Below are positions 47,388 to 62,561 of a stretch of DNA of 64,000 nucleotides, piece after piece. Every line of letters begins with the position of its first letter. Positions within the stretch are counted from its first letter, which is position 1. The position numbers and the translations under genes are program-made. The notes under the pieces are model-generated. The model ran no database searches and was not told the DNA's origin. It saw nothing but the letters and a program-made list of their open reading frames with translations. The stretch is from an uncultured Sphingomonadaceae bacterium (GTDB taxonomy: Bacteria > Pseudomonadota > Alphaproteobacteria > Sphingomonadales > Sphingomonadaceae), in assembly GCA_964245355.1 (NCBI GenBank), contig CAXTMT010000001.1:15895-79894 (forward strand). Direction: 5' to 3'.

Positions 47388-47412
47388 GGTCGTCCACTCG
47401 CCTTTCAGTCGC

Positions 47413-48240
47413 TCAGCTCACAAACTCGGAATGCCATTCCTTTAGATCGTCGCTGCGGTGTTTCGCCGCGTTCCATAGCATTTCGATATCGCTTCCCGAG
47501 ATGATGAACGGGGCGACTCCGAGTGATAAATACTCACGCACAAGACCGAGATTCGAGATGCCGCCAATGACGCAAAGTTTTCCGTTCCGGGCGCATGCGG
47601 TGGCAACATCGACGATACATTCGTGCAATCTCTGGTTCTCGAAATCGCCGGGGATGCCCAGTTCCGCAGACAGATCATTGGCCCCGATCGCGACCATGTC
47701 GACACCGTCGGTCCGGGCGATCGCTTCTGCGTTCGAAACGCCGAGCGGCGTTTCGATCAGGACTTGCACCACGACCGACCGGTCGAGCAGAGGATTGAGA
47801 ATGCGTGCCGGTGTTGGAGCGAAGCCCAATTGCGGCACCATCGCAATTTGCGAACGCTGTCCACGCGGCGCGAACCGGCAAGCGCGCGCAATCTCGGCGG
47901 CCTGATCGGCGGTCTCGATCCGTGCCGCGACGATACCGGACGCACCGCCATCGAGGCAGCGCCCGATCGAGCCGTAGTCGCGCTCCGGAACGCGGACAAA
48001 GGAAAACAGCCCGAGGTCGTTGGCCGTGGACGTCATGGCTGACGCGACATCAAGCGACATCGTGCTGTGCTCGAGATCGACAATGATGCTCTGATGCCCG
48101 GTCGAATGGGCGACGCGAACGACATCCGGCGTCCTGGCGCTTCTGATCATCATCGCGGTGACAAGCTTGCCGCGCTTCAATGTTTCGAGCAGGCCGCAGC
48201 TTCCTGATCTGGCCGAGGCATCCATCTTCATTCCTGTCAT
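47413..48240 (-). CDS. HpcH/HpaI aldolase family protein
   Basis: VDLEH, VRVP, LDGGA.G, RFAPRGQR, LIET, GANDL. Confidence 0.9.
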   Translation of the reverse strand: MTGMKMDASARSGSCGLLETLKRGKLVTAMMIRSARTPDVVRVAHSTGHQSIIVDLEHSTMSLDVASAMTSTANDLGLFSFVRVPERDYGSIGRCLDGGASGIVAARIETADQAAEIARACRFAPRGQRSQIAMVPQLGFAPTPARILNPLLDRSVVVQVLIETPLGVSNAEAIARTDGVDMVAIGANDLSAELGIPGDFENQRLHECIVDVATACARNGKLCVIGGISNLGLVREYLSLGVAPFIISGSDIEMLWNAAKHRSDDLKEWHSEFVS

Positions 48241-48286
48241 CCTGTCGGGCGAGTCCGGCGCGGAGCTACTCGCGGTAACTATCCCT

Positions 48287-49486
48287 TCAACGCCGTTTAC
48301 TCAGCGGATATGTCATATTGGTGAAACCGGGTATCACCACTGCTTCCGGCCGGTTGTCGTGATCGCAGAGCTGGTCGATGATGAAATGGGAAACCGAATT
48401 GGCGAGCTGCTGGGTCGGGTCTTCCATCACGAAGCGCAGCCGGGTGATGGCCGTCTGTCTATCGTCCGGCGACCTCAGTCTCGGCATCGCATGAAGGGTC
48501 TTGGTCGCGGCTTCGATCACCGGGGGTTCCTCGATGCTCTTGAGAAACGCGGGATATCCTTCAAACATTCTGCGGGCCAGATCGATGTTCGCCCGCAAAT
48601 GCAGAAATATGTCGCGGAACTGACTTTCGCGCTCGGTCGTCAGCGCGGCGTCCGCGGCGTCCGATGCCGAAAAGGACGGCCCATGCGCCGCGATATGGAG
48701 ATTCTCGACGGGCAACCGGCCTCCCGAAGCGCGCCACAGCAAATGACAGTTGCTTTGAGTGGCCCAGGTCAGGCCCGCGGTGGGCCGTCCGGCGCGGCCG
48801 CTTATCAAAACCATCAGCTTCCTCCAGTCGATGTCGTGCGAGCGCAGCCATCGAATGACGCGATAACCGATGTCGAGATATGTCAGGGCGAAGGTGGCAA
48901 CCATCACATCGTTGATCGGTACCGGAACTTCGGGATTGCCGGCCGGATCCAGAAAGGTCTCACGAAGATTTTCGAACGTCATCCTGGTTTCGTCGGCGAG
49001 ACATCCGGACAGAAACGCGAGGGCGACGTCGCAGGTGTAGTCGACAAGATCCGCGATCTTGGATTCGTATCCCGCCCACGCCTCCACGGCGACTTCGTCG
49101 GTCCAGTAGGTTTCGGTGTTGAACTCGCGAGCCTTTGCCGTTCGATCGATCAATCGTTCGGCGTCGTCCTTCCAGCCGACATAGCCAAGCTCGCGCAGCC
49201 GAAATAACCACGCGATGGCAGGTCCCAGATGAGAGATTGCCGTCAGCTCGACGAAACCGCGGGTCGAATTGCGAAAGCCTTCGACGATCGGTGGTTTTCC
49301 TGCGCCCGGAAAAAGCACGAAGTCCGACCCGGTCACGACCAGCAATGGTTCCTGCCTGGTCAGTTCGACCATGTGTCGGGTGAGATGTAACCCGGTGCTG
49401 TTCGGACCGGTATATGCGTCGTAAAGACTCCGGAACGACGGGTGCGGCTGGTACGTCGTTTGAGGCATTTTTTGTTCTTGATCCAT
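48287..49486 (-). CDS. Conserved-looking protein of unknown function (from memory resembles DUF5624; unverified)
   Basis: 399 aa, no signal peptide, motif-like segments GFVELTAISHLGPA and ISGRAGRPTAG; 25 and 46 bp from its neighbours. Confidence 0.75.
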   Translation of the reverse strand: MDQEQKMPQTTYQPHPSFRSLYDAYTGPNSTGLHLTRHMVELTRQEPLLVVTGSDFVLFPGAGKPPIVEGFRNSTRGFVELTAISHLGPAIAWLFRLRELGYVGWKDDAERLIDRTAKAREFNTETYWTDEVAVEAWAGYESKIADLVDYTCDVALAFLSGCLADETRMTFENLRETFLDPAGNPEVPVPINDVMVATFALTYLDIGYRVIRWLRSHDIDWRKLMVLISGRAGRPTAGLTWATQSNCHLLWRASGGRLPVENLHIAAHGPSFSASDAADAALTTERESQFRDIFLHLRANIDLARRMFEGYPAFLKSIEEPPVIEAATKTLHAMPRLRSPDDRQTAITRLRFVMEDPTQQLANSVSHFIIDQLCDHDNRPEAVVIPGFTNMTYPLSKRR

Positions 49487-49511
49487 GGCACCGAGCCGAC
49501 GATGGAGGCAA

Positions 49512-50597
49512 TTACGTATTCAGGCGATAGACGACCGAATCCTGACGGAAGCGAACCTCCGGTGTCAGGCTGTTTGCCACCGCAATGAAGAGCATGCCGT
49601 CTTGTTCAAACGCGGTCGCTTCGGTACCACCGAAGGTGGGGAATTCTTGCTCCAGTTTCATCCCGCCGCCAGCCCATCGGTAAAGCCGCGACTTCAAGGC
49701 GGTTCGCGGAGCCGAGGGCGCCCCTTCGATAAAATTGACTTGAACCATGAAGAGCTCCCCGCCGGTTCTGAAGACACAAAACTCGCGTCCGCCCGGACCG
49801 CTCAGCGGCTGATGAACGATAAATTCCTGACTATCCCAGCGGTAAAGCAGCGACTCGCCCTGGATATTCGCGAACGCCAGATAGCGCCCGCCCTCGGCTT
49901 CGAAAAAGCGGAAGCAACGCCCGCCCGACGGAGCGAAGCTCTGAAAAGGCACAAAGGACGCGCCGTCCCAACGAAGCACCATCGAATCCCCGACGTGATC
50001 GGCATAGCAAAGGAAATGTTCGTCATCGATATCGAACGATTCCCAATTATAGCCCCACTTGCCGTCAAGAGCCTGAAACGCGACGAAGCAGGACCCATCC
50101 CATTCATAAATGCGGGACTCCCTTGGATTGGTCGCCTCAATATGCCCCAGCGTCACGCCTTGCGCCAAAGCAAGGAATGCGCGGCTTCCGATTTGAAAGA
50201 AATGCCACTGCTTTGCGGCAAATGCCGCGAACGTCTGAAACGGCTCCCAGCTTTCGCCCGATCGTTTGTAAAGCACCTGATCGAGATTGTAGTCGAAGGG
50301 GCCGTGGCCGGCGCGTATCGCAGCGGCGATCAGAAACGCCGCCGCACCGAATTCGAAGAACAGCACGTCTTCGCCCCCGGAGAGCGGCAGCACGCTCTCG
50401 TCAACGAATTGCCCGCCTTCCCAGCGAAAGATCGGAGCCCCGACATCGCTGTCGCCGCCATTCATGTGGGCCGGCGTATCGGGGATATCGCGAGCCAGTT
50501 GCGGAATGATCAGGTATCTTTTACCTGATACCACGAAGGTCGACATGCCCCGCGCGCCAGAGGTCGACAAGCGCTGGTGCTCGACGAGATGACCCAT
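49512..50597 (-). CDS. EAR/EPTP-repeat seven-bladed beta-propeller protein
   Basis: Seven ~45-60-aa repeats F..(F/H)Q.(L/F)...G(G/A)....F...G..(Y/F)L..A....S.(I/L)Y.W.G; GAGGA RBS before ATG 50597. Confidence 0.8.
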   Translation of the reverse strand: MGHLVEHQRLSTSGARGMSTFVVSGKRYLIIPQLARDIPDTPAHMNGGDSDVGAPIFRWEGGQFVDESVLPLSGGEDVLFFEFGAAAFLIAAAIRAGHGPFDYNLDQVLYKRSGESWEPFQTFAAFAAKQWHFFQIGSRAFLALAQGVTLGHIEATNPRESRIYEWDGSCFVAFQALDGKWGYNWESFDIDDEHFLCYADHVGDSMVLRWDGASFVPFQSFAPSGGRCFRFFEAEGGRYLAFANIQGESLLYRWDSQEFIVHQPLSGPGGREFCVFRTGGELFMVQVNFIEGAPSAPRTALKSRLYRWAGGGMKLEQEFPTFGGTEATAFEQDGMLFIAVANSLTPEVRFRQDSVVYRLNT

Positions 50598-50604
50598 CGA
50601 TTCC

Positions 50605-51858
50605 TCAACTCGCTTTCGGCTTGACGAATTCGATTGCGCCGTAGGCGACGGCAGCCAGCAGCGTGAAGATCGCAACGATAACGAACAGGAATTCCGAGTC
50701 GACCTGCCAGGTCAGGAGCTGGCCGCCGATCATGGGCCCCGCAATCGCGCCCAATCTGCCAACGGCGAACTGGCAGCCAGTTCCGGTCGCCCGTATTTTT
50801 CGGGGAAAGATATTGACGGCCATTGCCGGCGCGTTCTGGTTGCCTCCAATGGCAAACAGCCCAGCAACAAACAGGCCTGCAAAAAACGTCGTGTTCGTCG
50901 GGGTCAACTGGCCGAGCATGGCGATAGCAACCGCACCCAGCACGACCATCACCGCCACAGGCCGGAACAAGCCGTATTTCCTGACGACAATCATGGACCC
51001 GATCGCTCCGACGATCCCTCCGAGATTTAGGAATACTCCGCACAACGCCGCGCTGGCCGGCGACATCCCTGACTTGACGGCGATCATCGGCGTCCAGCTA
51101 TTGAGCAAATACGACACCAGCAGCATGCAGAACACGCCGAACATCATGCAGATGGTGGCCCATAGACGCCCTTCCATGAACAAAGCCCGAATCGATGAGA
51201 TCCGGCCGGTTTTTTCGCCTTCCCTTTCCGCGCCCGATCGCGACGCTGCAAAGGATTCCTTCAGAAGAAATGCGCCGGGCATCACGGCCAATGTCAGCAT
51301 TCCGGCACCGACAAACAGCGTTCGCCATCCGTGGTGGATGAGAATCGATGTCAGCGCGCCACCCACGACCGCGCCGAAAGGAAAGCCCACGAACATCATC
51401 GTTACGGCGGTGTCGCGTTTTTCTCTGGGAAAGTGCTCGGCTACCAGCGGGATCACCGCAGCCAGGACGCCGCCGAGGGCGAAACCCGCGATCAACCGAT
51501 ACGCGGCGAGCTCGGCGAACGACGTTGCCGTGGAGCACAGGATTGTGGCTGCTCCGGCGACGGCCAGCGATGCCGTCAGCACCGGGCGGCGCCCGAGACG
51601 ATCGGCAACCGGACCCAGTATCATGCCGCCCAGCATCGAACCTGCCAAACCCGCGGCAAAGATCTGACCCACGCTGATATGCGTGAGGTTCAATTCGGAG
51701 GTAATCAGCGGCACCAGAAAAGATACGATGAAAATATCGTAGCCATCGACCATCACCAAAAGAAAGGCAAAAGCCAGCAGCAGCAGGGGCGCGGCCTGTT
51801 CGCCGTCAACCGATGCGTTCACTCCGTTTTCCTTGGCAAGAAGCACGATATCACCCAC
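50605..51858 (-). CDS. MFS aromatic acid:H+ symporter-like transporter
   Basis: DGYD, GPVADRLGRR, GFPFG, FP.KIRATG.G. Confidence 0.88.
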   Translation of the reverse strand: MGDIVLLAKENGVNASVDGEQAAPLLLLAFAFLLVMVDGYDIFIVSFLVPLITSELNLTHISVGQIFAAGLAGSMLGGMILGPVADRLGRRPVLTASLAVAGAATILCSTATSFAELAAYRLIAGFALGGVLAAVIPLVAEHFPREKRDTAVTMMFVGFPFGAVVGGALTSILIHHGWRTLFVGAGMLTLAVMPGAFLLKESFAASRSGAEREGEKTGRISSIRALFMEGRLWATICMMFGVFCMLLVSYLLNSWTPMIAVKSGMSPASAALCGVFLNLGGIVGAIGSMIVVRKYGLFRPVAVMVVLGAVAIAMLGQLTPTNTTFFAGLFVAGLFAIGGNQNAPAMAVNIFPRKIRATGTGCQFAVGRLGAIAGPMIGGQLLTWQVDSEFLFVIVAIFTLLAAVAYGAIEFVKPKAS

Positions 51859-51926
51859 GGGGTAATTACAGCGGCGTCGCGTTGCGTTCTGCGATCGGCA
51901 AACAACGCATCGGTTGAAAGGACTGC

Positions 51927-51952
51927 AAAAAAGGGCGCCGCTCGCGGCGCCC
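51927..51952 (-). terminator. Rho-independent terminator after the SphA-like gene
   Basis: Minus strand GGGCGCCG-CGAG-CGGCGCCC-TTTTTT. Confidence 0.75.
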
Positions 51953-51978
51953 GAGTTTGGAGGAGTTCGTGAGCCTGA

Positions 51979-52977
51979 TTACTTGTAAAGCAGCGGCCGC
52001 TTCAGGGCGACGGGCTCTTCGGGAGCCCATATCCTGAAGCTGAGGTTGGCGAAAACCTTGTACCCTTTTGTGACCGATGCGGTGTCGACCGCCGAGCCGG
52101 GAGGTCCACCGCCCCAGGCCTTCGCGTAAAACTCGTCGACGGCCCACACGTTCAGCGCCGCCGGCCCGAAATTGTATCCGACGAGGGCGCCCGCGGCGTA
52201 GATGTCGAACCGATTCGTGTTGATGGACTGGCGATAGAATGCGCTCGACGTATCGTCGGTAATCTGACCTACGTAGTAGCCGACCGGCCCGAGCGTCCAC
52301 TTTCCGATGGACTTGGTGGCGGTGAACTCCGCGTGCAAGACGTTACCCGATCGATAGTTGGTGATGGTGTTGGCGGTATTTATTTCTTCCGACAAGAAGG
52401 CGGTTAGATTCCATCCGTTCTTGAGGTAGGACAGGAAAATCTCCGGCTGAAACGTCCACCACGGGTTTCCTATGCTGCCGAGTCCGTTGGCGCCGCTAAC
52501 CGTCCCGTCCGGCACGTATATTCCCAAACCGGTTTTCACGGCAAATCCGCTGTCACCGAATCTCCAGCTCAACTCGCCCGGGACGATATATGTGTTGTGC
52601 GCTCCCGCTTTTTGCAGGTTCACGGGCGCGCCGACGTCGAGCATCGAAACCGGCTGCACCAGAACCGCGTCATAAGCGGCGCCCAGAAACGTCCATCCCG
52701 GCACATAAAGAAAGCCGACGGCAGTCGACGCGAGATGAACGGGTACTCCACCCCCGAGCGGCGCGCCCGGACCTACGATAGTCGATTGCGTCGTGAAGGT
52801 CTGATTGAACATGTACAGGCCCGGGCCCGGCGTGCCTGCCGAAGCGCCGATAACGATACCGGGCATCTGTTCCCAACCCGGCGCACCGGCTTCATAGGCA
52901 TTCGCGGATGCGGCGATGCCGATTGTCGCGAAACTCAACACCGCAGCAGCGCGACGCAGTCGATTGCTGATCATCAT
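51979..52977 (-). CDS. SphA / Phenol_MetA_deg family outer-membrane channel (paralog of 32301-33284)
   Basis: Signal peptide, PGPGLY, GLGIYVPDG, GNPWWTFQPE, YRSGNVLHAEF, GYYVGQITDD. Confidence 0.82.
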   Translation of the reverse strand: MMISNRLRRAAAVLSFATIGIAASANAYEAGAPGWEQMPGIVIGASAGTPGPGLYMFNQTFTTQSTIVGPGAPLGGGVPVHLASTAVGFLYVPGWTFLGAAYDAVLVQPVSMLDVGAPVNLQKAGAHNTYIVPGELSWRFGDSGFAVKTGLGIYVPDGTVSGANGLGSIGNPWWTFQPEIFLSYLKNGWNLTAFLSEEINTANTITNYRSGNVLHAEFTATKSIGKWTLGPVGYYVGQITDDTSSAFYRQSINTNRFDIYAAGALVGYNFGPAALNVWAVDEFYAKAWGGGPPGSAVDTASVTKGYKVFANLSFRIWAPEEPVALKRPLLYK

Positions 52978-53304
52978 GTTTCCCCCAGACCACGTTGTTA
53001 GATACTGATACAAAGTCCGCGTGGGGGACGGATCGACCTTCGTCCCTCGTTCGCTTCCTTCACACGTTTCTTTTCTTTTGCCCGATCTTGCACTCGCATT
53101 CGAAGGCGTCAATTCGGGTTTGGCGTTTGAAAGATATGTAAAACAAATCAATGTCCGGATCTGGATCGGCGGCGGCTTCTATGGCGCCGAGGCTTCCGGT
53201 CATAGGGCGGTTGTGATGTGAGGAGCAGCCGGAAGGCAATCCCTCGGCGCCAGCCGGCGCCATGAATTTGCAAGCGGCTCGGACGGCCGCGCATTCCCGA
53301 ACGC

Positions 53305-53407
53305 TACGCATGATCCGGAAAAGCGGGCACCGCTTTCCGGAAAAGGATCATGCTCGAACATCAGGGTAGAGCGGGACGACGATTCGAAGAGAAATTATCG
53401 CGCTCTT
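53305..53407 (-). repeat. ~100-bp palindromic intergenic repeat, copy 3 (inverted, more diverged)
   Basis: GCATGATCCGGAAAAG..GGATCATGCTC..AGAGCGGGACGACGATTCGAAGAGAAATTATCGCGCTC matches the reverse complement of copies 1 and 2. Confidence 0.8.
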
Positions 53408-53536
53408 GGCGCTGAGCGAGCTTTCGGGGGACCGCGATCGGCAGGGGCGGTGCCCGCGTGACGATCGGCCGCGCGCGAGTGGCCGCCGAGGCTTGCTGAA
53501 ATCGCAAGCCTCACGCATCAGCGACGGAAGGACGCT

Positions 53537-54544
53537 TCAGACCGCCGACGTCATCGTCTTGCGGGATTTGTTTGCGGGCCGCTTTTTAGAGCGCTTGTTT
53601 TTGTTTTTCGGGCTGCCTGCCGGCTGTTGCAACCGGTACGATCCATTCCACGTCAACGTTTTCGCGCGCGCCATCTGGCTCAGATTTGCGATGCGGAAGT
53701 CCGCTTCGCCTGCCCGATAAACCATCAAAAGCTCGGTCAGCGCGTCCTCATCTGCCAGCGGCACGTAGGCAATGTTGGGTATGCCGATATACCGCAGACT
53801 CGACGGTACCACCGCGATGCCGAGGCCGGTCGCCACGAGACCGATGATGGTCGACGCTTCTTTGGCTTCCTGAACGATCGCGGGCGCGAAAGAACGCTTC
53901 GCACAGAGCTGGATGAAGTAATCGTAGATGCCGACGCCATAGGATCGCGGATAGAATATAAAACGCTCGTGACGAAGATCGGCCAGTACGATTTTTCTTC
54001 TCTTATGAAGAGGATGTGTCGGATCCAATGCGACGACCAGCGGATCAGTGAGAAGCTTCGTCGTCGTAATGTCCGCTGGAGGCTTGAACCCTGGCGGCGT
54101 CCGGATAATCCCAACGTCCAGTTCCCTCGCCTGCAGCGCGGCCAACTGTGTCGAAGACGTCATGTCCTGCAGCACGACGCGGATGTCGGGGTATTTGGTC
54201 CGGAACGCGTGCACGAGGCCCGGAAAAAACGACAGCAAGGACGACGCGGCGGTGAAGCCGATGCGGAGCTCTCCGGCTTCGCCATCCAGCATCTTGCGAA
54301 TCTCGCCGACGGTCCGGTCGATCCTGGCGAGAATGGAGCAGCCATTCTCCCGAAGCACCAAACCTATTTCCGTCAATTCAACCCGTCGGCGCGTGCGATG
54401 GAAAAGCTTCCCGCCGAGTTCGCGTTCCAGCTCCTGAATCGCAAGGGATAACGGAGCCTGCGTCATTCCCAAGCGCTCCGCCGTCTTGCGAAAATGAAGC
54501 TCCTCCGCGAGAACGATAAAATAGCGCAACTGATTTATCTTCAC
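53537..54544 (-). CDS. LysR family regulator
   Basis: QLRYFIVLAEELHF.KTAERLGMTQAPLS..I.ELE.ELG..LF.RT.R.VELT; GTG start with GAGG. Confidence 0.93.
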   Translation of the reverse strand: MKINQLRYFIVLAEELHFRKTAERLGMTQAPLSLAIQELERELGGKLFHRTRRRVELTEIGLVLRENGCSILARIDRTVGEIRKMLDGEAGELRIGFTAASSLLSFFPGLVHAFRTKYPDIRVVLQDMTSSTQLAALQARELDVGIIRTPPGFKPPADITTTKLLTDPLVVALDPTHPLHKRRKIVLADLRHERFIFYPRSYGVGIYDYFIQLCAKRSFAPAIVQEAKEASTIIGLVATGLGIAVVPSSLRYIGIPNIAYVPLADEDALTELLMVYRAGEADFRIANLSQMARAKTLTWNGSYRLQQPAGSPKNKNKRSKKRPANKSRKTMTSAV

Positions 54545-54871
54545 GGCGCCTCTCAATCCATACGATCTCGAACGGCAACCAGGCTGGCGGCTCGGGCAAA
54601 TACTCCTTTAGATCAACCCTCACGCTGGAACCTCATCAATTGCTTTTATAAATCAACGAAGCGCCTTGAACAATCGTCCTCTGTTTTGAATGCAGAATTT
54701 ACTATCGCTCGTTTGAGATCGCGATAGCGCCACGCTGCTTGAGCGGCGACGGAATCCTTGTCGGCTCAACGGCAGTTCGATCAGCGCCGTTCTTTTAGGT
54801 CGTAGTGCATCGCTGAAAGACCTGCGGCTCGTTTTATCGGACTTGATAAATCGAACGGGACAAAACAAATA

Positions 54872-54881
54872 TTGCATGCAA
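54872..54881. promoter_or_regulatory. Palindrome TTGCATGCAA, candidate GntR operator
   Basis: Perfect 10-bp palindrome within ATATTGCATGCAAAAT, upstream of an operon that encodes a GntR. Confidence 0.5.
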
Positions 54882-54935
54882 AATTCAAAACGTGTTAGCG
54901 TTTCTAAAAGGCAAACTCGAATTGGAGGGAGCGTC

Positions 54936-55388
54936 ATGTTTTCGAAACCGTTTTTGGTTGTCCTTGCAGCTTTGCTTTTTAGCAATGCATCCGCCTTCGC
55001 CCAGCAGACCCCGCAGGAAGCCGCCAATAAGCAGGTCGTGCTGGAGTTTTACGAAAAAGGGCTGAATCAGAAAGATGCGGCCGCCGCGGCGCCGTACTTT
55101 GGAGCGCACTACAAGCAGCACAATCCCACCGCAAGAGACGGGGCGGAAGGCTTTCGTGGCTTCGTAGGTTTCCTGAAAGAAAAATTCCCTCAGTCGCACG
55201 GCGAGATAAAGCAGGTTTTCGCCGATGGCGACTTCGTGATCCTGCATGTGCACGCGATACGCGTTCCCGGCACGCGCGGCAGCGCTATCGTGGATATCTT
55301 CAAATTGGAAAACGGCAAGATCGTCGAGCATTGGGACGTCATTCAGGAAATACCGGAGACCGCGGCCAACGGAAACGGGATGTTCTGA
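54936..55388 (+). CDS. Exported SnoaL/NTF2-like protein
   Basis: Signal peptide (ASAFA), NKQVVLEFY, YKQHNP...DG.EGF, DIFKLENGKIVEHWDV; GGAGG RBS. Confidence 0.88.
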   Translation: MFSKPFLVVLAALLFSNASAFAQQTPQEAANKQVVLEFYEKGLNQKDAAAAAPYFGAHYKQHNPTARDGAEGFRGFVGFLKEKFPQSHGEIKQVFADGDFVILHVHAIRVPGTRGSAIVDIFKLENGKIVEHWDVIQEIPETAANGNGMF

Positions 55389-55475
55389 TGTCCCTGCGCG
55401 CGCATTCCTCGTTCGACAACGGCGTCCATTCGACTGACGGACTGCACAGACGCATGGCGGTCCTTGGAGGTTAAG

Positions 55476-56513
55476 ATGATCGGTGACATTTTCGTTTTCG
55501 ACAACGTGATCCACCTCTACGATCTTTCACCGGAAAACCTGCGCACGGAGCGCAGCGATTCCGGGCCGAGCCGTCAGCAAACCCTCGAAGAGACGTCGCG
55601 CATCCGGACTCCGGGAGAACCGCCGAACGACGATCCCTCGTTTGACTGGGGCCGTCGGTGGTCAACGGCGGAAATGCACGACCTGGTGTTTTCCAGGTCG
55701 CCCACTGACATGGCGATGGCCCAGACCGTGCCGATGTTCGACTGGTTTCGCGATTGGTACGCTCCGGTCAAGACACAGCATGCGATGGCGGCCGCCTATC
55801 CCGAAAAGGTGCTGTTCTGCGGCGGGGTCGATCCTATGTTCCGGGGAATGCAGGATGCACTGGAACAGATCGATTATCAGACCAAGGTGCTCGGAGCGCG
55901 GTCGTTCAAATTTTACAACGGTCACGCCGAGGTAAAGGACTGCTGGCGATGCGACGATCGGAAGGTCGCCTACCCGCTTTACGAGCGGGCGATCGCTAAC
56001 GGGATAAACGTGTTGCAATTCCACAAAGGCAATCCTCACGGATTGCAGAACATGGAGTATCTAAGTCCGCTGGACCTGCAAGCGCCGGCGCGCGATTTCC
56101 CCCACGTGCAATTCATCGTCCATCACCTCGCGATGCCGTACTTCGACGAGATGTTGTCCATCGCAGCCCGTTTTCCGAATATTCATCTTTCATTGGCAGG
56201 TCACGTCGCTTTCTATCGGATTGCCCCGCGACGTTTCCAGGAGCAGATGGGCCGGCTACTTCAAGTCGTGGGAGCTCACAAGATTCTATGGGGCTCCGAA
56301 GCCGCCCTGGCAGGCGGACCGGCGCCGTATCTCAAGGCTTTCATGGATTTTGAGATACCGCAGGATCTTCGCGCCGGTTACGGATATCCCCAGATTACCA
56401 TCGAAGACAAACGCGCGATCTTGGGCGAGAATTTCGCGGCCCTGATGGAGGTCGACATCGAGGCCAAGAAGTCCGAGCTAGGCTTGTCCGGTAAAACGGC
56501 CGTGCTCGCATGA
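55476..56513 (+). CDS. Amidohydrolase_2 family protein with atypical metal motifs
   Basis: FDNVIH, FKFY, FHKG, DFP.VQFIVHH, KILWGSE, KRAILGEN; GGAGG RBS. Confidence 0.85.
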   Translation: MIGDIFVFDNVIHLYDLSPENLRTERSDSGPSRQQTLEETSRIRTPGEPPNDDPSFDWGRRWSTAEMHDLVFSRSPTDMAMAQTVPMFDWFRDWYAPVKTQHAMAAAYPEKVLFCGGVDPMFRGMQDALEQIDYQTKVLGARSFKFYNGHAEVKDCWRCDDRKVAYPLYERAIANGINVLQFHKGNPHGLQNMEYLSPLDLQAPARDFPHVQFIVHHLAMPYFDEMLSIAARFPNIHLSLAGHVAFYRIAPRRFQEQMGRLLQVVGAHKILWGSEAALAGGPAPYLKAFMDFEIPQDLRAGYGYPQITIEDKRAILGENFAALMEVDIEAKKSELGLSGKTAVLA

Positions 56514-56887
56514 ATGCGGCTTTGCGAACTACCGTCGAGAAGCAGGTGGCTTATCTTGACCGGCTGATCAGGGTGCATGCCGGCGGTCTTGTGCTCGAGA
56601 GCATCAGCGCGCAAGGGACCGTACGCGTCAGGTTCACCGGCATGTGCGCCGGTTGTGAGAACCGTCCCGTTACCGCGATCGGCACGATCCGTCCGGCACT
56701 GATGACGCTCGAAGGAGTACGCGCGGTCGAGATCGTCGGCGCCCGGATATCTCAGGAGGCGGAAAGGCGAATCGAAGAAGATCTGATGTCTGACCAAAGC
56801 CGTTCTCATGTGATCCGAGTGATCGGGCTGCTCGACAAGTCGGACCGGACGGCATCGATGGCAGAAAGTCGTCCGGAAGATGAATAA
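56510..56887 (+). CDS. Stand-alone NifU C-terminal (Nfu) domain protein
   Basis: HAGGL.L....GTVRVRFTGMCAGC (CxxC); ATGA overlap with the amidohydrolase. Confidence 0.8.
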   Translation: MNAALRTTVEKQVAYLDRLIRVHAGGLVLESISAQGTVRVRFTGMCAGCENRPVTAIGTIRPALMTLEGVRAVEIVGARISQEAERRIEEDLMSDQSRSHVIRVIGLLDKSDRTASMAESRPEDE

Positions 56888-57560
56888 GGCCGTCATCAAA
56901 GCCGACATCCTCCATTTCAAGGTCACCGACCGGCTGCGCGACATGATCGTTTCCGGTCGGATGAAGCCGGGCGAGTCCATTTCGGAAAGGGATCTCTGCG
57001 AGCATTTCGGCATATCCCGGACGCCCCTGCGCGAAGCGCTGAAGGTGCTTGCGTCGGCCGAACTGATCGACTTGCTTCCGCGGCGCGGCGCGGTCGTGGC
57101 GCCCGTTTCGGTCGAGGAGCTGGCAGAGAGATTCGCGGTCGTGCGGATGATCGAGGGCCACGCCGCGGAAACGGTTTGCTCGCGGTCGCGGCCCGAGGAC
57201 GTCGGGAGCCTCGAGGAGATCGCCGACCGCATCGAAGCGTCGATCGAAAAAAAGAATGTCGGACGCTACTTCGAGGCGAGCGGACAGTTTCACCGCAGGC
57301 TTGTCGAATTGACCGGAAACCGCCCGTTGATCAAAATTCATGCCGACTTGCTTGCCCACCTGACGCGAGCCCGGTTGATCGCGCTCCGGTACGAGGAGGA
57401 CTACGTCGACCTGTTAAAATTCCACCGGAGCATCGTGAACGCGATGAAGCGAAAGGATGTCCGCGCGGCGGCTCAAGCCGCGATGGACCATCTGACGCGC
57501 GTGCAGAGGTCCGTCCTATCGACGCTGGCCAGCCGGGTTGCCGATGTGCACCGTTCCTGA
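56880..57560 (+). CDS. GntR family (FCD) regulator
   Basis: LRDMIVSG..KPGE.ISERDLCE.FGISRTPLREALKVL. Confidence 0.93.
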   Translation: MNKAVIKADILHFKVTDRLRDMIVSGRMKPGESISERDLCEHFGISRTPLREALKVLASAELIDLLPRRGAVVAPVSVEELAERFAVVRMIEGHAAETVCSRSRPEDVGSLEEIADRIEASIEKKNVGRYFEASGQFHRRLVELTGNRPLIKIHADLLAHLTRARLIALRYEEDYVDLLKFHRSIVNAMKRKDVRAAAQAAMDHLTRVQRSVLSTLASRVADVHRS

Positions 57561-57630
57561 TCGGCCGTGGGCCGGCCCGTCCAAACGCGCAGCAGGCGCG
57601 CGCGAGTCACTTGTAATTCCAGAGGCATAG

Positions 57631-58995
57631 ATGTCGCCGGTGCGGGTCGTAGATATCGCTCGAGCAGTCGATGAAAGTCCGCTCGGCGGTTTTCAAAAGC
57701 GCATCATGGGTGTTTGCTTCCTGATTTCCATGATCGAAGGCTTCGATACGCAGGCCATCGCGTTCGCCGCACCGACGATAGCGTCCCAATGGATGCTCTC
57801 ACCTTCGCTGTTCGGGCCGATTTTCAGCGCCGGACTGCTGGGAAGCGTGCTGGGCACGATCGTGATGGGTCGGATCCAAGATCGCTTCGGGAGACGCAAG
57901 GCCCTGTTGAATTCCATTTTCGCGTTCGGTGCTCTGACCGCGCTCACGGGCTTCGCGACTTCTTTTCAAAGTCTTCTGGCATTGCGTTTTCTTGCGGGAA
58001 TCGGTCTCGGCGCGGCTATTCCCAATCTGTTCGCCTATGTCTCCGAATTCGCCCCTGCGCGGCTGAGAGGATCTGCCGTCGCCGTCACGGTAGCGGGTTT
58101 TCCGTTCGGCGCGGCCGTTGGTGGATTGCTCGCAACTCCCTTCGTCGAAACCCATGGCTGGCAACCTATTTTCTGGTTCGGCGGAGCAATCCCTCTGCTG
58201 ATCATTCCGGTTGTGTGGGCTGTGTTTCCGGAAACCGTTCGGTTTTTGGCCCTCAGGCCCGGCTCTCAAGCTGAAGTAGCGGCCCTGCTGCGGCGAATTA
58301 ATCCTGGTCTGATCTTTCCGGCCGACACCTTGTTCGTTCTGAACGAACCGACGGTATCCGCTGCGTCTTTCGCCGGCCTGTTTCGGGGCGCGCTCCTGCC
58401 ACGGAGCATCCTGCTGCCCGTTGCGCTTTCCAGCAGCCTTCTGCTTGCGTACTGCCTTTTGAACTGGATACCGATCCTGCTCCGGCAGTCCGGACTGGAC
58501 GGAAAGAGCGCTTTACACGCCACCGTCGTTTTCAACATTGCGGGGATTGTCGGTACGCTGGTCCTGACCAACCTCATTGATAGAGGCGGCCGCCCGTTGC
58601 TGATCATGGGCAACGCGTACCTCGTCGGATGCCTGTCGGTCGCATCGATCGGCCTCGCGGGAAATTCGCTCTGGTCCATCCTGGCGGTGGTTTTTCTGTC
58701 CGGCTTCTTCATTACCGGTCCGCAACTCTCGCTGACGGCCTACATCGCTAATTACTATCCCACGGCGATCCGCGGTACCGGTATCGGCTGGGCCCATGGA
58801 ATGGGTCGGGTCGGATCGTTGTTGGGACCGCTGATCGGCGGGATGCTGTTGCGTCTCGATACATCGCTTCCCCTGCTTTTCTCCTTGATGAGCGCGTCCG
58901 CACTCGTCAGTGCCGGGGCGCTGCTGGGCTTGTTTTTCGGGTTCACGGAAGTCGCGGGCAACAGGGGCCACGCGACTCAGGCGGATCAAGGCTAG
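57631..58995 (+). CDS. MFS aromatic acid:H+ symporter (PcaK-like)
   Basis: EGFD, DRFGRR, RFLAGIGLG, YYPTAIRGTG.GW. Confidence 0.9.
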   Translation: MSPVRVVDIARAVDESPLGGFQKRIMGVCFLISMIEGFDTQAIAFAAPTIASQWMLSPSLFGPIFSAGLLGSVLGTIVMGRIQDRFGRRKALLNSIFAFGALTALTGFATSFQSLLALRFLAGIGLGAAIPNLFAYVSEFAPARLRGSAVAVTVAGFPFGAAVGGLLATPFVETHGWQPIFWFGGAIPLLIIPVVWAVFPETVRFLALRPGSQAEVAALLRRINPGLIFPADTLFVLNEPTVSAASFAGLFRGALLPRSILLPVALSSSLLLAYCLLNWIPILLRQSGLDGKSALHATVVFNIAGIVGTLVLTNLIDRGGRPLLIMGNAYLVGCLSVASIGLAGNSLWSILAVVFLSGFFITGPQLSLTAYIANYYPTAIRGTGIGWAHGMGRVGSLLGPLIGGMLLRLDTSLPLLFSLMSASALVSAGALLGLFFGFTEVAGNRGHATQADQG

Positions 58996-59041
58996 GTCCG
59001 TTGCAGCCATCCATGCCCACGACGATAAGCGGGGATTCACC

Positions 59042-59974
59042 ATGGCATTCTCATTGGCGACCGTCATTCTGGATCGAGGTCGCGTCGGCGCCGTCGAGAC
59101 CGGTGGCGTCTTCTGGTCTCTGGACAGGCTTGTGGCGGCTGGGGCGAAGCTCGGCGCGACGAGCGTCAAGGGGCTGCTGGAAAACTGGACGCATTCGTTT
59201 GCGCAACTCGAACAAATCGCGACCGATTGCGCGGGCGGAATATATGGTGCGGAGCTCTCGATTCCGCGCTCTGCGGTCCGCCTGGACACTCCGGTGCGGT
59301 TTCCGAACAAATTGATCGCGGTCGGTGCCAATTACGCATCCCATCTATCGGAGATGGGTCTGAAGGTTGCCAAATGGTCGCCGATGCCGTTTTTTCTGAT
59401 GTCGCCGACCACATGTCTTGTCGGGCCGGGTCGGACGGTGCGCATGCCCCGCGATTCAAATCAACTGGACTGGGAAATCGAGCTTGCTGTCATCATCGGA
59501 GATCGTCTGGTCGACGCATCTCCTGCCCGCGCATTATCGGCGATCGCCGGCTATTCGATCGGTCTCGACCTCACGGCGCGCGATCTGGTTTCTCCGAAGG
59601 ATCAGCCGGCGGATTTCGTCCGTGGCAAGGGACAGGACACCATGGCGCCTTGCGGGCCTTCGATGCTGCCGGCTCAATTCGTCAGGGACCCCCACGACCT
59701 GAGACTGACGCTGGATGTCAACGGGCGTCGATATCAAGACGGTTCGACAAGCGAGATGATCTATCGGATCGACGAGCAAATCAGCATCGTGAGCCGTTTC
59801 GTCACGATCGAGCCGGGCGATATTTTTTTCACCGGAACCCCTGCCGGGACCGGGAAGAAACACGGCGTATTTCTCAAGCCGGGTGATCGCATAAGGGGGG
59901 AGATCGGGCCGATCGGGATGCTGGAGATCGAGGTGGGGGATCTTCATCTCAACGATGACATGGAATTGCTATAA
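59042..59974 (+). CDS. Fumarylacetoacetate hydrolase family protein
   Basis: VGANY..H, DWEIEL, DLTARD, GKGQDT, EPGDIFFTGTPAG. Confidence 0.9.
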   Translation: MAFSLATVILDRGRVGAVETGGVFWSLDRLVAAGAKLGATSVKGLLENWTHSFAQLEQIATDCAGGIYGAELSIPRSAVRLDTPVRFPNKLIAVGANYASHLSEMGLKVAKWSPMPFFLMSPTTCLVGPGRTVRMPRDSNQLDWEIELAVIIGDRLVDASPARALSAIAGYSIGLDLTARDLVSPKDQPADFVRGKGQDTMAPCGPSMLPAQFVRDPHDLRLTLDVNGRRYQDGSTSEMIYRIDEQISIVSRFVTIEPGDIFFTGTPAGTGKKHGVFLKPGDRIRGEIGPIGMLEIEVGDLHLNDDMELL

Positions 59975-60105
59975 GACTTCTTGCGTCGCATCGCGATTCC
60001 GATGCGACGTCTTGAGATCAACTCACGGTCGCAACCGCTCGCAGACCGGCCAAGGCCGAGCGGCGGCTGTTTGATCGGCAATTTCGTAACAAAGGGAGGA
60101 TCGAA

Positions 60106-61548
60106 GTGCAGGTTGGACTTTTGATAGGAAATGGCGACGTTTCCGCAATTGGCGGCAGAACATTCACGAGAAAAGACCCGATGACGAGCGACCCGGCGAC
60201 CGAAGCCGCCGCTGCCGATGTCGGGGACGTCGACAAAGCGGTTGATGCGGCGGTCGCGGCATTTCCATCCTGGGCCGCAACTTCTCCCAGCGCGCGGAGA
60301 GCGCTGCTTGTCAAAGCTGCCGACGTGATGGTGGAGATGAGCGACCAATTCACCGACACAATGACGCGCGAAACCGGTTCAACCGCTCCTTGGGGACACT
60401 TTAACGTCGCGCTGGCTTCGAACATCCTGCGCGAAGCAGCGTCGATGACGACGCAGATCACCGGTGAAGTGATCCCGTCGGACAAACCGGGCGTTCTTTC
60501 GCTCGCGATCCGCAAACCGGCCGGCGTCTGCGTCGGCATCGCCCCTTGGAACGCCCCCGTGATACTCGGAACGCGCGCGATAGCGATGGCAGTTGCCTGC
60601 GGCAACACCGCGGTCTTGAAGGCGTCCGAGATATGTCCTGGAACCCACCGGCTGATCGGCGATGTTTTTGTCAGAGCCGGCTTTCCGGCCGGGGTCCTGA
60701 ACGTACTGACAAACCAGCCCAGCGATGCCCCGGCCGTCGTCGAGGCGCTGATCGCCCATGCCGCCGTCAGACGCATCAACTTCACCGGCTCGACGAAAAC
60801 CGGCCGGATAATCGCCGAGTCTGCGGGCCGCCACCTCAAGCCGGTTCTGCTCGAGCTCGGAGGAAAGGCGCCTTTGATCGTTCTGGCGGATGCAGATATC
60901 GATCAGGCGGTCGATGCGGCGATCTTCGGTGCCTTCGCCAATCAGGGTCAGATATGCATGTCCACCGAGCGCATCATCGTCGATCAATCCATCGCCGACG
61001 ATTTTGCCCGGAAATTCTCCGACAGGGCGCGCCGACTTCCGGCCGGCAATCCGCGCGAGCACGTCGTTCTGGGATCGCTGGTGAACCTCGAAGCGGCTGA
61101 AAGAATCGATGAACTGGTGGTCGACGCGCGCAATCAGGGGGCTGAGCTGCTCGCGGGCGGAACGCGCAAGGGAACGGTCATGGAAGCGACCGTGCTCGAC
61201 AAGGTCACGCCTGCCATGAGGATCTACAGCGAAGAATCGTTCGGCCCCGCCAAGAGCATAGTGCGCGTCGACGGCGTCGAGGAAGCGATCAGAGTGGCGA
61301 ACGACACGGCATATGGGCTGTCCGCGGCAGTGTTCAGCAAGGACATCAAACTGGCTCTGGAAGTCGCCGCGCGATTGGATACCGGCATCTGCCATATCAA
61401 CGGGCCGACCGTGAGTGACGAAGCCCAAATGCCTTTCGGCGGAGTGAAAGCATCGGGCTACGGACGATTCGGCGGGAAGGCCGCCATCGCCGAATTCACC
61501 GATTTGAGATGGATCACGATAGAGGGTCCGCAACACTACCCGTTCTAG
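60106..61548 (+). CDS. Aromatic aldehyde dehydrogenase (Vdh/NahF-like)
   Basis: IAPWNAP, FTGST, LELGGK, GQICMS, EESFGP, PFGG.K.SGYGRFGG; GTG start with GGAGG. Confidence 0.92.
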   Translation: MQVGLLIGNGDVSAIGGRTFTRKDPMTSDPATEAAAADVGDVDKAVDAAVAAFPSWAATSPSARRALLVKAADVMVEMSDQFTDTMTRETGSTAPWGHFNVALASNILREAASMTTQITGEVIPSDKPGVLSLAIRKPAGVCVGIAPWNAPVILGTRAIAMAVACGNTAVLKASEICPGTHRLIGDVFVRAGFPAGVLNVLTNQPSDAPAVVEALIAHAAVRRINFTGSTKTGRIIAESAGRHLKPVLLELGGKAPLIVLADADIDQAVDAAIFGAFANQGQICMSTERIIVDQSIADDFARKFSDRARRLPAGNPREHVVLGSLVNLEAAERIDELVVDARNQGAELLAGGTRKGTVMEATVLDKVTPAMRIYSEESFGPAKSIVRVDGVEEAIRVANDTAYGLSAAVFSKDIKLALEVAARLDTGICHINGPTVSDEAQMPFGGVKASGYGRFGGKAAIAEFTDLRWITIEGPQHYPF

Positions 61549-61687
61549 AGTTGGCTCGGGGAAGAACGATCCGTTGGAGGCGCGCCACCGCAACCGTTCT
61601 TGCAGATGAGTTGTGCCGCCGCAAGAAAGGCCTGCGGCGGCCGGTCTCGGCTAGCAGTCGGCCGAAACGATGTCTTGGTCTCCATTG

Positions 61688-61737
61688 GAGCATGATCTTG
61701 TTCGGAACACCGGTACCCACTTTCCCGGATCATGCTC
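61688..61737 (+). repeat. Half copy (right hairpin arm) of the palindromic repeat
   Basis: GAGCATGATC..TTCGGAACACCGGTACCCACTTTCCCG..GATCATGCTC. Confidence 0.78.
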
Positions 61738-61764
61738 TGGCTTCGAGTGATGCGATCTGCGGAA

Positions 61765-61980
61765 TCAGAACGACGACGCGGCCGATGGATCGGCGATCAG
61801 ATGGCGCCGCTGCTGCAGCAAGATTCTGGCCGCCCGCTCGGCGTCGCGCGCCGACCGAAACGCGCGACCCTCGAGGCCGTCGAAAGCGCGGTCCGAGGAA
61901 AAGAAGCGGTACCCCCGCGCGTCTCTGGCAACAATGCCTGCGGTACGGCGCTCGATTTCAATGATGTAGGCTTGGGTCAT
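61765..61980 (-). CDS. Small conserved hypothetical protein
   Basis: MTQAYIIEI..RTAGIV.RD.RGYRFFSS...F..LEG..F.S.R.AERAAR, recognised from memory as a rhizobial small protein. Confidence 0.7.
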   Translation of the reverse strand: MTQAYIIEIERRTAGIVARDARGYRFFSSDRAFDGLEGRAFRSARDAERAARILLQQRRHLIADPSAASSF

Positions 61981-62561
61981 GTCTGCTGTTTCACCGGATA
62001 GACCGGAGTCCCCGTATGGTTTGGTGACGACGATGTTTTGAACGAGAAGATCAGCAACAAGCGCCGGTGGCCGCGGAGAAGCACCGCAGCGTCGCGCACC
62101 GATGCGCGTCTCCCGACGCTGATGTTCGATGTGATCGCATGCGCGCAACTCTTGAGCCGGACAATTCCCGGCTTAGATAGTATTGACGCTGGCAATCACG
62201 TCAATGAAATGCCCGTTCAATGTTGTCGGTGCGACGCGTCGGCGGTTCTCTGCATGCAGCAGAAAAGAAAACGGAACGATTTTTGCGGCGTGAGCCGGCC
62301 GTTTGACCCGAAGCTGCGGGCCTCGCGGCGCCGGTGCAATCATCAGGAGTTCGTCGGCAGGGCAGCGTGGCCGGTGACGACGTGAGCCGAGAGATTCAAA
62401 AGCTGTCCCTGCATCGGGCAGGCAATGAAACATTGCTACATCCAGATTGGTCGGCAGCAAGATTTGCGCTTGGGCCGCCCGAATTCAAAACAACGTTGCC
62501 AGCGCAAGATGGTAAGAGGTTGCCGAGCATCGCCGCGACATGTCCTGCCCGGAGCCGACCG

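What the first reader, a model, noticed from the sequence alone, without database searches (positions are those of the whole stretch)
55476..56887. Atypical amidohydrolase translationally coupled to a stand-alone Nfu (CxxC) domain
Seen: the usual DxHxH is DNVIH and the usual G(S/T)D is GSE; the next gene overlaps by ATGA and encodes only a NifU C-terminal domain (GMCAGC) plus a helical tail. No isc/suf/nif genes or obvious Fe-S client are in the operon. Established: Nfu domains are Fe-S carriers; related amidohydrolases in propane monooxygenase clusters are followed by a DUF59 metal-cluster protein. Inference: a dedicated metallochaperone/activator for an iron-dependent, possibly non-hydrolytic (lyase, dehydratase or decarboxylase) amidohydrolase-fold enzyme.
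Basis: partly seen in the sequence, partly recalled or inferred. Interest (0 to 1): 0.72.

Follow-up and report, generated by a model that had tools for sequence, protein, structure and literature searches.

The report
Barrel enzyme with dedicated Nfu partner
An unusual TIM-barrel "amidohydrolase" and a small iron-sulfur-carrier-like protein form a gene pair that is kept together across many bacterial phyla, so they almost certainly work as one unit, but nobody has yet tested what that unit does.

Summary
A PF04909 barrel gene (55476-56513) overlaps by ATGA a 125-aa Nfu-type gene (56510-56887). The odd motifs hold across the family: the first His of HxH is V or A in 80 of 80 relatives, and the strand-8 acid is Glu in 71 and Asp in 9.

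The pairing is close to a rule:
- Forward: 64 of 80 genome loci have the Nfu gene directly downstream. In 5 of 5 "orphan" genomes checked, a second barrel-Nfu pair lies elsewhere.
- Reverse: 46 of 46 evaluable metagenome Nfu loci have the barrel upstream.
- More distant barrels (26-31% identity), including those in propane/alkene monooxygenase clusters, pair with a DUF59 (PF01883) protein instead. All 18 plasmid records examined had a partner (2 Nfu, 16 DUF59).
- Every partner type aligned has two invariant cysteines.

The other neighbours vary, so the barrel itself is the partner's client or co-subunit. I read the Nfu protein as a dedicated metal-centre loading factor, or else a small subunit, of a non-canonical barrel metalloenzyme. 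Metal, substrate and physical contact are untested.

The barrel is not an amidohydrolase-related dinuclear oxygenase (ARO): 0 of 81 sequences carry its motif. Earlier scan notes describe the DUF59 version, and one Nfu version, on other DNA.

The parts
53537..54556 (-). LysR-type regulator, divergent from the operon
   Evidence: Pfam HTH_1 plus LysR_substrate.
54843..55388 (+). SnoaL-like protein; the start codon is uncertain
   Evidence: Pfam SnoaL/SnoaL_2 at E about 6e-15. The same ORF family lies near the pair in L003, L008, L010 and L012. An 'ester cyclase' follows a DUF59-type pair in Bradyrhizobium.
55465..55469 (+). GGAGG ribosome-binding site, 6 nt before the ATG at 55476
   Evidence: Read directly.
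55476..56513 (+). Atypical PF04909 TIM-barrel enzyme, 345 aa. Signature residues: D9, H13, D119, K145, Y147, H150, H183-K184, H216-H217, S274-E275.
   Evidence: Pfam E 6.5e-24. AF2 model pLDDT 90. Best structural match 3irs, Z 26.2. Invariant residues.
56510..56887 (+). Nfu-type two-cysteine partner, 125 aa. H23, C46 and C49 are invariant. The Nfu core is about residues 1-80, followed by a variable helical tail.
   Evidence: ATGA overlap. Pfam NifU 24.5 bits. Invariants in 67 of 67 sequences. Model pLDDT 91. The top three PDB fold matches are Nfu domains.
56880..57560 (+). GntR/FCD regulator, overlapping the Nfu stop by 8 nt
   Evidence: Pfam GntR plus FCD; sequence.
57631..58995 (+). MFS transporter
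   Evidence: Pfam MFS_1 at E 8e-50.
58910..59974 (+). Fumarylacetoacetate-hydrolase-family enzyme; the start codon is uncertain
   Evidence: Pfam FAA_hydrolase at E 5e-61. The FAH ORF family occurs in 13 loci of the Nfu group.
60106..61548 (+). Aldehyde dehydrogenase
   Evidence: Pfam Aldedh at E 2e-148.

Best explanation
The two genes encode one functional unit. The first is a catalytic TIM-barrel metalloenzyme of the PF04909 fold with a remodelled metal site. It keeps Asp9 and His13 on strand 1, Lys145 on strand 4, His183 on strand 5, His216/217 on strand 6 and Glu275 on strand 8, but has lost the first His of HxH. The second is a small Nfu-type protein whose invariant CxxC holds a metal ion or Fe-S cluster. 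This protein is dedicated to the barrel: it loads, completes or repairs the barrel's metal centre. It is not a general Fe-S carrier.

In this window the unit sits in a LysR/GntR-controlled catabolic operon with an MFS importer, a SnoaL-like protein, an FAH-family hydrolase and an aldehyde dehydrogenase. It therefore probably converts an imported oxygenated organic acid or ketone.

Shown: gene structure, fold, residue conservation, and strict two-way co-occurrence. Inferred: metal binding, the direction of action (partner acts on barrel), iron, and the substrate class.
For: 1. Forward linkage. Nfu lies directly downstream in 64 of 80 genome loci and about 3.7 kb away in 2 more. Thirteen loci form one clade without it and one contig is cut. 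In 5 of 5 of those genomes searched, a second barrel paralogue with an ATGA-coupled Nfu lies elsewhere.

2. Reverse linkage. Of 51 metagenome loci found with the Nfu pattern, 46 have the barrel directly upstream and 3 have no room at the contig end. The other 2 are weak hits (E above 1e-4) without it.

3. Coupling. Of 108 pairs, 77 overlap by 4 nt and 93 overlap in all. This rests on a heuristic choice of start codon.

4. Partner swap. Barrels at 26-31% identity pair with PF01883/DUF59 instead. All 18 plasmid records examined, of 36 hits, had a partner (2 Nfu, 16 DUF59). So did 4 of 4 further genomes. The tree needs only one swap, at a split with 100% support.

5. All partner types aligned have two invariant Cys: Nfu in 67 of 67, short DUF59 in 4 of 4 and long DUF59 in 8 of 8.

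6. The other neighbours vary (SDR, LLM monooxygenases, IclR, TctC, FAH, E1 subunits, Zn-ADH). The barrel is the only constant candidate client.

7. The specialised Nfu scores 122 bits. Housekeeping NfuA-type genes score 58 bits or less. It was seen in 1 of 401 genomes of the same phylum sample, the window's own.
Against: No result here shows metal binding, contact between the two proteins, or activity.

Known Nfu clients are Fe-S proteins, and the barrel has no cysteine-rich site. Only C159 (78 of 80) and C115 (75 of 80) are conserved, and neither is kept in the DUF59 branch.

His/Asp/Lys barrel sites usually load metal unaided.

Near-universal 1:1 translational coupling fits a stoichiometric subunit at least as well as a catalytic chaperone.

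His23 is not special to this family: NfuA-type domains also read HGG.

The window protein itself scores below Pfam's NifU cut-off.
Confidence: 0.5

Rival explanations
1. The pair is a heteromeric enzyme. The Nfu (or DUF59) protein is a permanent small subunit. Its two thiolates, or a cluster they hold, are part of the active site or an electron relay of the barrel.
For: Start and stop codons overlap in 93 of 108 pairs. Every partner type aligned has two invariant Cys. The barrel has lost a canonical ligand, and the short-DUF59 branch even lacks the strand-8 acid. The distant barrel in Actinomycetospora makes up 3.2% of the proteome, an enzyme-like level (PMC7176365, passages read).
Against: No fused barrel-partner protein was found (17 longer representatives). 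Thirteen barrels have no adjacent partner, and 5 of those genomes (all 5 searched) have two barrel genes but only one strong Nfu match each, so the partner can act in trans. The tail of the Nfu protein varies in length and sequence.
Confidence: 0.25
2. The CxxC protein is a dithiol/disulfide redox partner, thioredoxin-like in function. It keeps the barrel, or a substrate adduct, reduced.
For: Every partner architecture aligned has two invariant cysteines. C159 is near-invariant in the Nfu-branch barrels.
Against: The fold and motifs (HGG, G-x-C-x-x-C) are those of cluster-carrying Nfu domains. The barrel cysteines are not conserved in the DUF59 branch.
Confidence: 0.08
3. Barrel and partner together are an assembly kit for another metalloenzyme, for example the diiron hydroxylase in monooxygenase clusters.
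For: The distant branch sits between monooxygenase genes and GroEL. GroEL is required for heterologous expression of that monooxygenase (PMC6849523, passages read).
Against: Most pairs have no monooxygenase or other constant metalloenzyme nearby. This window has none.
Confidence: 0.05
4. The Nfu gene is an ordinary housekeeping Fe-S carrier that only happens to lie next to the barrel.
For: It keeps all the hallmarks of an Nfu domain.
Against: There is two-way linkage across phyla. It forms a distinct high-scoring subfamily (122 bits against 58 or less). It is missing from the other 400 genomes of the phylum sample.
Confidence: 0.02

Closest known systems
'Amidohydrolase' plus unknown/DUF59 ORF pair downstream of prm/mim propane-acetone-phenol monooxygenase genes (Gordonia TY-5, Mycolicibacterium smegmatis/goodii)
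   Same: The barrel is homologous at 26-31% identity and shares D9, D78, D119, K145, Y147, H183-K184 and H217. The small partner is adjacent and often overlapping, with two invariant Cys. No function has been assigned (PMC6849523 and PMC7176365, passages read).
   Different: There the partner is PF01883/DUF59, not Nfu. The barrels of the branch that includes the monooxygenase-cluster members keep canonical DxHxH and GSD. They form a separate clade with 100% support.
BB4693 of Bordetella bronchiseptica (PDB 3irs/3k4w), an uncharacterised structural-genomics barrel
   Same: It is the closest solved structure: VIA Z 26.2, rmsd 2.9 over 263 residues. It is also the only PDB sequence hit (profile E 7e-12).
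   Different: In the aligned stretch it lacks K145 (Asn), H150 (Val), H183 (Thr) and H216 (Ser). It is therefore not isofunctional.
Nfu / NifU C-terminal domain Fe-S carriers (PF01106: NfuA, human NFU1, plant CnfU)
   Same: It has the same alpha-beta-beta-alpha-beta core, the G-x-C-x-x-C motif and an HGG motif as in NfuA. That these domains carry [4Fe-4S] clusters is recalled from the literature and was not checked here.
   Different: It stands alone, has an extra variable helical tail, and forms its own subfamily that is always encoded with one enzyme family. The window protein scores below Pfam's cut-off.
Amidohydrolase-related dinuclear oxygenases (AROs: PtmU3, AibH2, SfbO, DitZ)
   Same: They share the PF04909 fold and appear among the structural matches (8sm6, 8ful, 8uyr, 6omp). 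They are redox enzymes misannotated as amidohydrolases.
   Different: The ARO signature motifs are absent. D-x-P-H-x-[DE] occurs in 0 of 81 sequences, and strand 1 reads D-x-[VA]-x-H, not D-x-H.
Dedicated accessory proteins of metalloenzymes (urease UreE/F/G, nitrile hydratase activators, PaaD of phenylacetyl-CoA epoxidase)
   Same: This is a working analogy only: a small protein encoded next to, and specific for, one metalloenzyme. It is recalled from the literature and was not tested here.
   Different: No homology to the urease or nitrile hydratase factors was seen here. PaaD is a DUF59 protein, so it resembles the sister branch's partner, not this one.

Membership tests
Amidohydro_2 (PF04909) | Match to the family profile above the curated cut-off | tested here: met
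   85.6 bits against a cut-off of 26.4, E 6.5e-24, residues 92-319.
Amidohydro_2 (PF04909) | (beta/alpha)8 barrel fold like solved members | tested here: met
   Model pLDDT 90. 3irs scores Z 26.2. LigW-like, COG3618 lactonase, LigI, LigJ, LigY and ACMSD score Z 18-22.
Canonical metal-dependent amidohydrolase site | His-x-His at the end of strand 1 | tested here: not met
   The first His position is V (64) or A (16) in 80 of 80 sequences. The second His is kept in 80 of 80.
Canonical metal-dependent amidohydrolase site | Asp at the end of strand 8 | tested here: not met
   The window has Glu275. The family has E in 71 and D in 9 of 80. The strand assignment comes from the model's secondary structure.
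Amidohydrolase-related dinuclear oxygenases (ARO) | C-terminal D-x-P-H-x-[DE] loop motif (PMC13154177, section 7) | tested here: not met
   0 of 81 family sequences carry it.
Amidohydrolase-related dinuclear oxygenases (ARO) | N-terminal D-x-H on strand 1 | tested here: not met
   Strand 1 reads D-x-[VA]-x-H in 80 of 80 sequences.
Nfu / NifU C-terminal domain (PF01106) | Profile match above the curated cut-off | tested here: inconclusive
   The window protein scores 24.5 bits against a cut-off of 27, E 3e-5. The Shinella orthologue scores 46.8 bits. Nine of 9 homologues are precomputed as PF01106. Atlas neighbours are NifU clusters at 0.90-0.92.
Nfu / NifU C-terminal domain (PF01106) | Conserved C-x-x-C after strand 2 | tested here: met
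   C46 and C49 are present in 67 of 67 sequences. Their position after strand 37-44 comes from the model.
Nfu / NifU C-terminal domain (PF01106) | Nfu fold | tested here: met
   The top three Foldseek PDB matches are CnfU 2z51, NFU1 CTD 2m5o and HIRIP5 1veh. E-values are weak, 2e-3 to 6e-3.
Nfu / NifU C-terminal domain (PF01106) | Binds and transfers an Fe-S cluster | not testable with these tools
   Needs purified protein (UV-vis, EPR, Moessbauer).
Monooxygenase-cluster amidohydrolase/DUF59 module | Barrel homologous to the monooxygenase-linked barrels | tested here: met
   26-30% identity, E 1e-22 to 2e-32. Shared invariant residues.
Monooxygenase-cluster amidohydrolase/DUF59 module | Partner is a PF01883/DUF59 protein | tested here: not met
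   The partner here is Nfu-type. PF01883 was found only for the distant branch.

The most novel reading that the evidence does not exclude
The barrel and its two-cysteine partner (Nfu here, DUF59 in the sister branch) form a heteromeric metalloenzyme. The partner's thiolates, or a cluster they hold, complete a remodelled, possibly Lys145-bridged metal site. That would be a cofactor architecture not described for the amidohydrolase superfamily. It would catalyse a non-hydrolytic step on small oxygenated compounds. It would also explain the two unassigned ORFs that accompany propane/acetone monooxygenase genes.
Probability: 0.2. Interest if true: 0.85.

Novelty: new variant of a known kind. Interest (0 to 1): 0.62.

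Why it matters
About 150 protein clusters at 50% identity (E up to 1e-30) in at least seven bacterial phylum-level groups and in haloarchaea are annotated only as "amidohydrolase family protein". They are almost always encoded with a two-cysteine Nfu or DUF59 protein.

Showing what the partner does would define a rule for maturing or building a barrel metallocentre. It would give a function to the long-unexplained amidohydrolase/unknown-ORF pair of the propane, acetone and alkene monooxygenase clusters used in bioremediation. It would also tell people who express these enzymes that the small gene must be co-expressed. Several cultured hosts carry the pair (Variovorax, Acidovorax, Caballeronia, Paraburkholderia, Actinomadura, Shinella), so the question can be tested directly.

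Tried and rejected
- Complex prediction of barrel and Nfu, both as alignments: no answer, score 0.10 against a mark of 0.32. This is neither support nor evidence against.
- Sequencing runs for 54800-57600: none was listed, and no RNA holder was listed.
- Fused forms. The 'longer' search with the Nfu protein found none (weak evidence). Pfam on 17 longer barrel representatives found only PF04909. The tails of two of them are low-complexity or unrelated.
- ARO membership: rejected by motif.
- A His-Cys-Cys triad special to this Nfu family: dropped, because NfuA-type domains also read HGG.
- An Fe-S site in the barrel itself: rejected, because too few cysteines are conserved.
- Promoter and terminator scan of 54400-62400: fewer matches than in shuffled sequence.
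- NCBIfam: no model matches either protein.
- PDB by sequence for the Nfu protein: nothing significant.
- Literature. Six full-text searches found no paper that links PF04909 barrels to Nfu partners or assigns a function to the DUF59 pair. Most subscription journals are outside that library.
- Supplement of PMC7176365: the one file held as text contained none of the search terms, so the abundance of the DUF59 partner there is unknown.
- Substrate: the neighbourhoods vary too much to name one.

Full report
**What is in the sequence**

On the + strand an ORF runs from 55464 to 56513. GGAGG at 55465-55469 precedes ATG 55476, which gives a 345-aa protein. The next ORF starts at 56510, so that ATGA joins stop and start. 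It ends at 56887 and encodes 125 aa. A third gene starts at 56880 inside the second gene's last codons.

Pfam calls the first protein Amidohydro_2 (E 6.5e-24). It calls the second NifU, at E 3e-5 and 24.5 bits, just under the curated 27. The third is GntR plus FCD.

Around them lie:
- a divergent LysR gene
- a SnoaL-like gene
- an MFS transporter
- an FAH-family hydrolase
- an aldehyde dehydrogenase
- an NtaA/DmoA-type flavin monooxygenase

None of the 19 ORFs scanned between 47.4 and 64 kb matched an Fe-S assembly or Fe-S-binding Pfam family.

**The odd motifs are family traits**

A word-indexed search found 846 relatives of the barrel at E up to 1e-5. I aligned 80 genomic relatives at 48-72% identity with the window protein.
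- Asp9 and His13 are invariant.
- Position 11, the first His of the usual HxH, is Val (64) or Ala (16).
- The acid after strand 8 is Glu (71) or Asp (9).
- K145, Y147, N148, H150, H183, K184, H216 and H217 are present in 80 of 80.

The AF2 model is confident (pLDDT 90, pTM 0.90). It places these residues at or just after strands 1, 4, 5, 6 and 8.

The nearest solved structure is the uncharacterised BB4693 (3irs): Z 26.2, rmsd 2.9 over 263 residues. Other PF04909 enzymes (LigW-like, COG3618 lactonase, LigI, LigJ, LigY, ACMSD) follow at Z 18-22. BB4693 lacks K145, H150, H183 and H216 in the aligned stretch, so it does not tell the function.

**The small protein is a real Nfu domain**

In 67 sequences H23, G25, C46, C49 and G77 are invariant. 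The model (pLDDT 91) has the alpha-beta-beta-alpha-beta core plus two further helices at 82-92 and 95-119. Its three best PDB matches are the Nfu domains of CnfU, NFU1 and HIRIP5, at weak E-values of 2e-3 to 6e-3.

The tail varies in length and sequence between relatives. Housekeeping NfuA-type domains in other genomes also read HGG before the G-x-C-x-x-C, so His23 is not a special feature.

**The pairing is close to a rule, in both directions**

*Forward.* Of 80 genome loci fetched with the barrel, 66 hold an Nfu homologue. In 64 it is directly downstream and in 2 it lies about 3.7 kb away.

Of the other 14, one contig ends at the barrel. The other 13 form one clade in which two M24/creatinase-like genes follow. 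That clade keeps nearly every invariant residue; only positions 182 and 234 differ. In 5 of 5 of its genomes that I searched, a second barrel paralogue with an ATGA-coupled Nfu gene lies elsewhere on the chromosome.

*Reverse.* A metagenome scan with the Nfu pattern gave 51 loci.
- 46 have the barrel directly upstream.
- 3 have no room at the contig end.
- 2 are weak matches (E above 1e-4) without it.

*Coupling.* In 108 pairs, 77 overlap by 4 nt and 93 overlap in all, under a heuristic choice of start codon.

*Distribution.* The specialised Nfu scores 122 bits against its own profile, while housekeeping Nfu genes score 58 or less. In a 401-genome sample of the window's phylum only the window's own genome has it. 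The module is therefore patchy and accessory.

**A sister branch uses a different small partner**

tblastn against plasmids and chromids gave 36 records. I examined 18 of them.
- Two alphaproteobacterial records at 40% identity have an Nfu gene next door. RefSeq calls it "NifU family protein" in Shinella, where it scores 46.8 bits in Pfam.
- Sixteen records at 26-36% identity have an "iron-sulfur cluster assembly protein" next door. Pfam confirmed it as PF01883/DUF59 for the seven I scanned.
- The hosts are Alpha- and Betaproteobacteria, Actinomycetota, Thermomicrobium, Peribacillus and two haloarchaea.

Four of the sixteen lie in clusters with an aromatic/alkene monooxygenase beta subunit, MmoB and GroEL, or with an alcohol dehydrogenase and GroEL. 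The other twelve do not. Four more genomes of the phylum sample show the monooxygenase type with the long DUF59 directly downstream.

On a quick maximum-likelihood tree of 92 barrels, the DUF59-partnered and Nfu-partnered sequences are split by a branch with 100% support. The orphan clade is nested inside the Nfu group with 99% support.

Across both branches D9, D78, D119, K145, Y147, H183-K184 and H217 are invariant. Strand 1 and strand 8 differ by branch:

| Branch | Strand 1 | Strand 8 |
|---|---|---|
| Long DUF59 partner (includes the monooxygenase clusters) | DxHxH (DSHVA in 1 of 5) | GSD |
| Short DUF59 partner | D-A-V-x-H | no acid |
| This one (Nfu partner) | D-N-V-I-H | GSE |

Each partner type aligned has two invariant cysteines: Nfu in 67 of 67, short DUF59 in 4 of 4, and long DUF59 in 8 of 8.

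**What it most likely does**

Apart from the partner, the neighbours change from lineage to lineage: TctC and FAH in Burkholderiales; flavin monooxygenases, 2-hydroxyacid dehydrogenase and Zn-ADH in Actinomycetota; E1 subunits elsewhere. The barrel is therefore the only constant candidate for what the partner serves.

I take the pair to be one unit, a non-canonical barrel metalloenzyme whose metal centre is loaded, completed or repaired by a dedicated two-thiolate protein.

Two facts are compatible with action in trans: partners of unrelated fold have replaced one another, and orphan barrels share a genome with a single pair. This favours a maturation factor (0.5). The near-universal overlap of the genes favours a stoichiometric subunit (0.25). 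Redox-partner, assembly-kit and coincidence readings are less likely (0.08, 0.05 and 0.02).

Iron is only suggested by the kind of partner. The conserved Lys on strand 4 with His on strands 5 and 6 recalls the second-metal site of binuclear amidohydrolases. That comparison is from memory, and I could not measure the geometry.

In this window the operon content points to an imported oxygenated acid or ketone. I cannot name it. SnoaL-like or "ester cyclase" genes, alcohol dehydrogenases and glyoxalase-type genes recur near both branches.

**Comparison with what is known**

In Actinomycetospora the amidohydrolase-like protein reaches 3.2% of the proteome on 2-hydroxyisobutyrate. The paper assigns it no function (PMC7176365, passages read). 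The one supplement held as text contained none of my search terms.

The fold also houses the amidohydrolase-related dinuclear oxygenases (AROs). Their defining D-x-P-H-x-[DE] motif (PMC13154177, section 7 read) occurs in 0 of 81 family sequences, and strand 1 does not read D-x-H.

Six full-text searches found no paper on a barrel-Nfu pair. That library lacks most subscription journals.

Earlier notes of this scan describe the DUF59 version on other DNA, and once an amidohydrolase_2 plus NifU-C-like pair. I checked the DUF59 claims myself only as far as go.

**Verdict**

The Nfu-partnered clade is a new variant of a gene pair that is known but unexplained. The family is small, about 153 clusters at 50% identity with E up to 1e-30, but it is spread over many phyla. 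Cultured hosts are available for a direct test.

Noticed in passing
L061-L081 (13 loci, e.g. L067:7155-8285): The orphan barrel clade, from unnamed MAGs and Nitrospinota, sits in a fixed block. An isochorismatase-like gene, SdhB-like and SdhA-like genes and an unknown 226-261-aa ORF precede the barrel. Two tandem M24/creatinase-like genes and a glyoxalase-fold gene follow it. This looks like a separate conserved operon.
   Followed up: partly
window 56880-57560: A GntR/FCD regulator gene lies inside the operon and overlaps the Nfu stop by 8 nt (ATGAATAA). The operon therefore has two regulators, a LysR gene upstream on the other strand and this GntR within it.
   Followed up: no
L168, L172 (alignment A4): Barrels of the short-DUF59 branch have Gly or Cys where every amidohydrolase is expected to have the strand-8 Asp (WGSGG, WATGC). 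This is an even more remodelled site than the one in the window.
   Followed up: partly
L186:3293-3703, L173:5347-5919, and the Glyoxalase ORFs in L061-L081: Methylglyoxal-type detoxification genes (gloA, DJ-1/PfpI, glyoxalase fold) recur next to barrel-partner pairs in unrelated hosts. This hints that a reactive 2-oxoaldehyde is produced or consumed nearby.
   Followed up: no
L040-L053, L071, L080; L167, L169-L171: A Zn-dependent alcohol dehydrogenase lies beside the barrel in both the Nfu branch (Actinomycetota) and the DUF59 branch. It is the most frequent third gene.
   Followed up: partly
window 61509-61964: A 151-aa ORF between the aldehyde dehydrogenase and the NtaA/DmoA-type monooxygenase has no Pfam or NCBIfam match. 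It overlaps the end of the dehydrogenase gene by 40 nt, so it may not be a real gene.
   Followed up: no
window 46500-54544: The upstream operon (HpcH-like aldolase, DUF5624 protein, EPTP propeller, MFS transporter, MetA-pathway porin) was seen. It is the subject of other notes of this scan. I saw no sign that it is linked to the barrel-Nfu operon.
   Followed up: no
L180 (Nonomuraea gerenzanensis record): A barrel at 36% identity, between the two branches, has a weak short-DUF59-like match directly upstream, not downstream. It is worth placing on the tree to date the partner swap.
   Followed up: no
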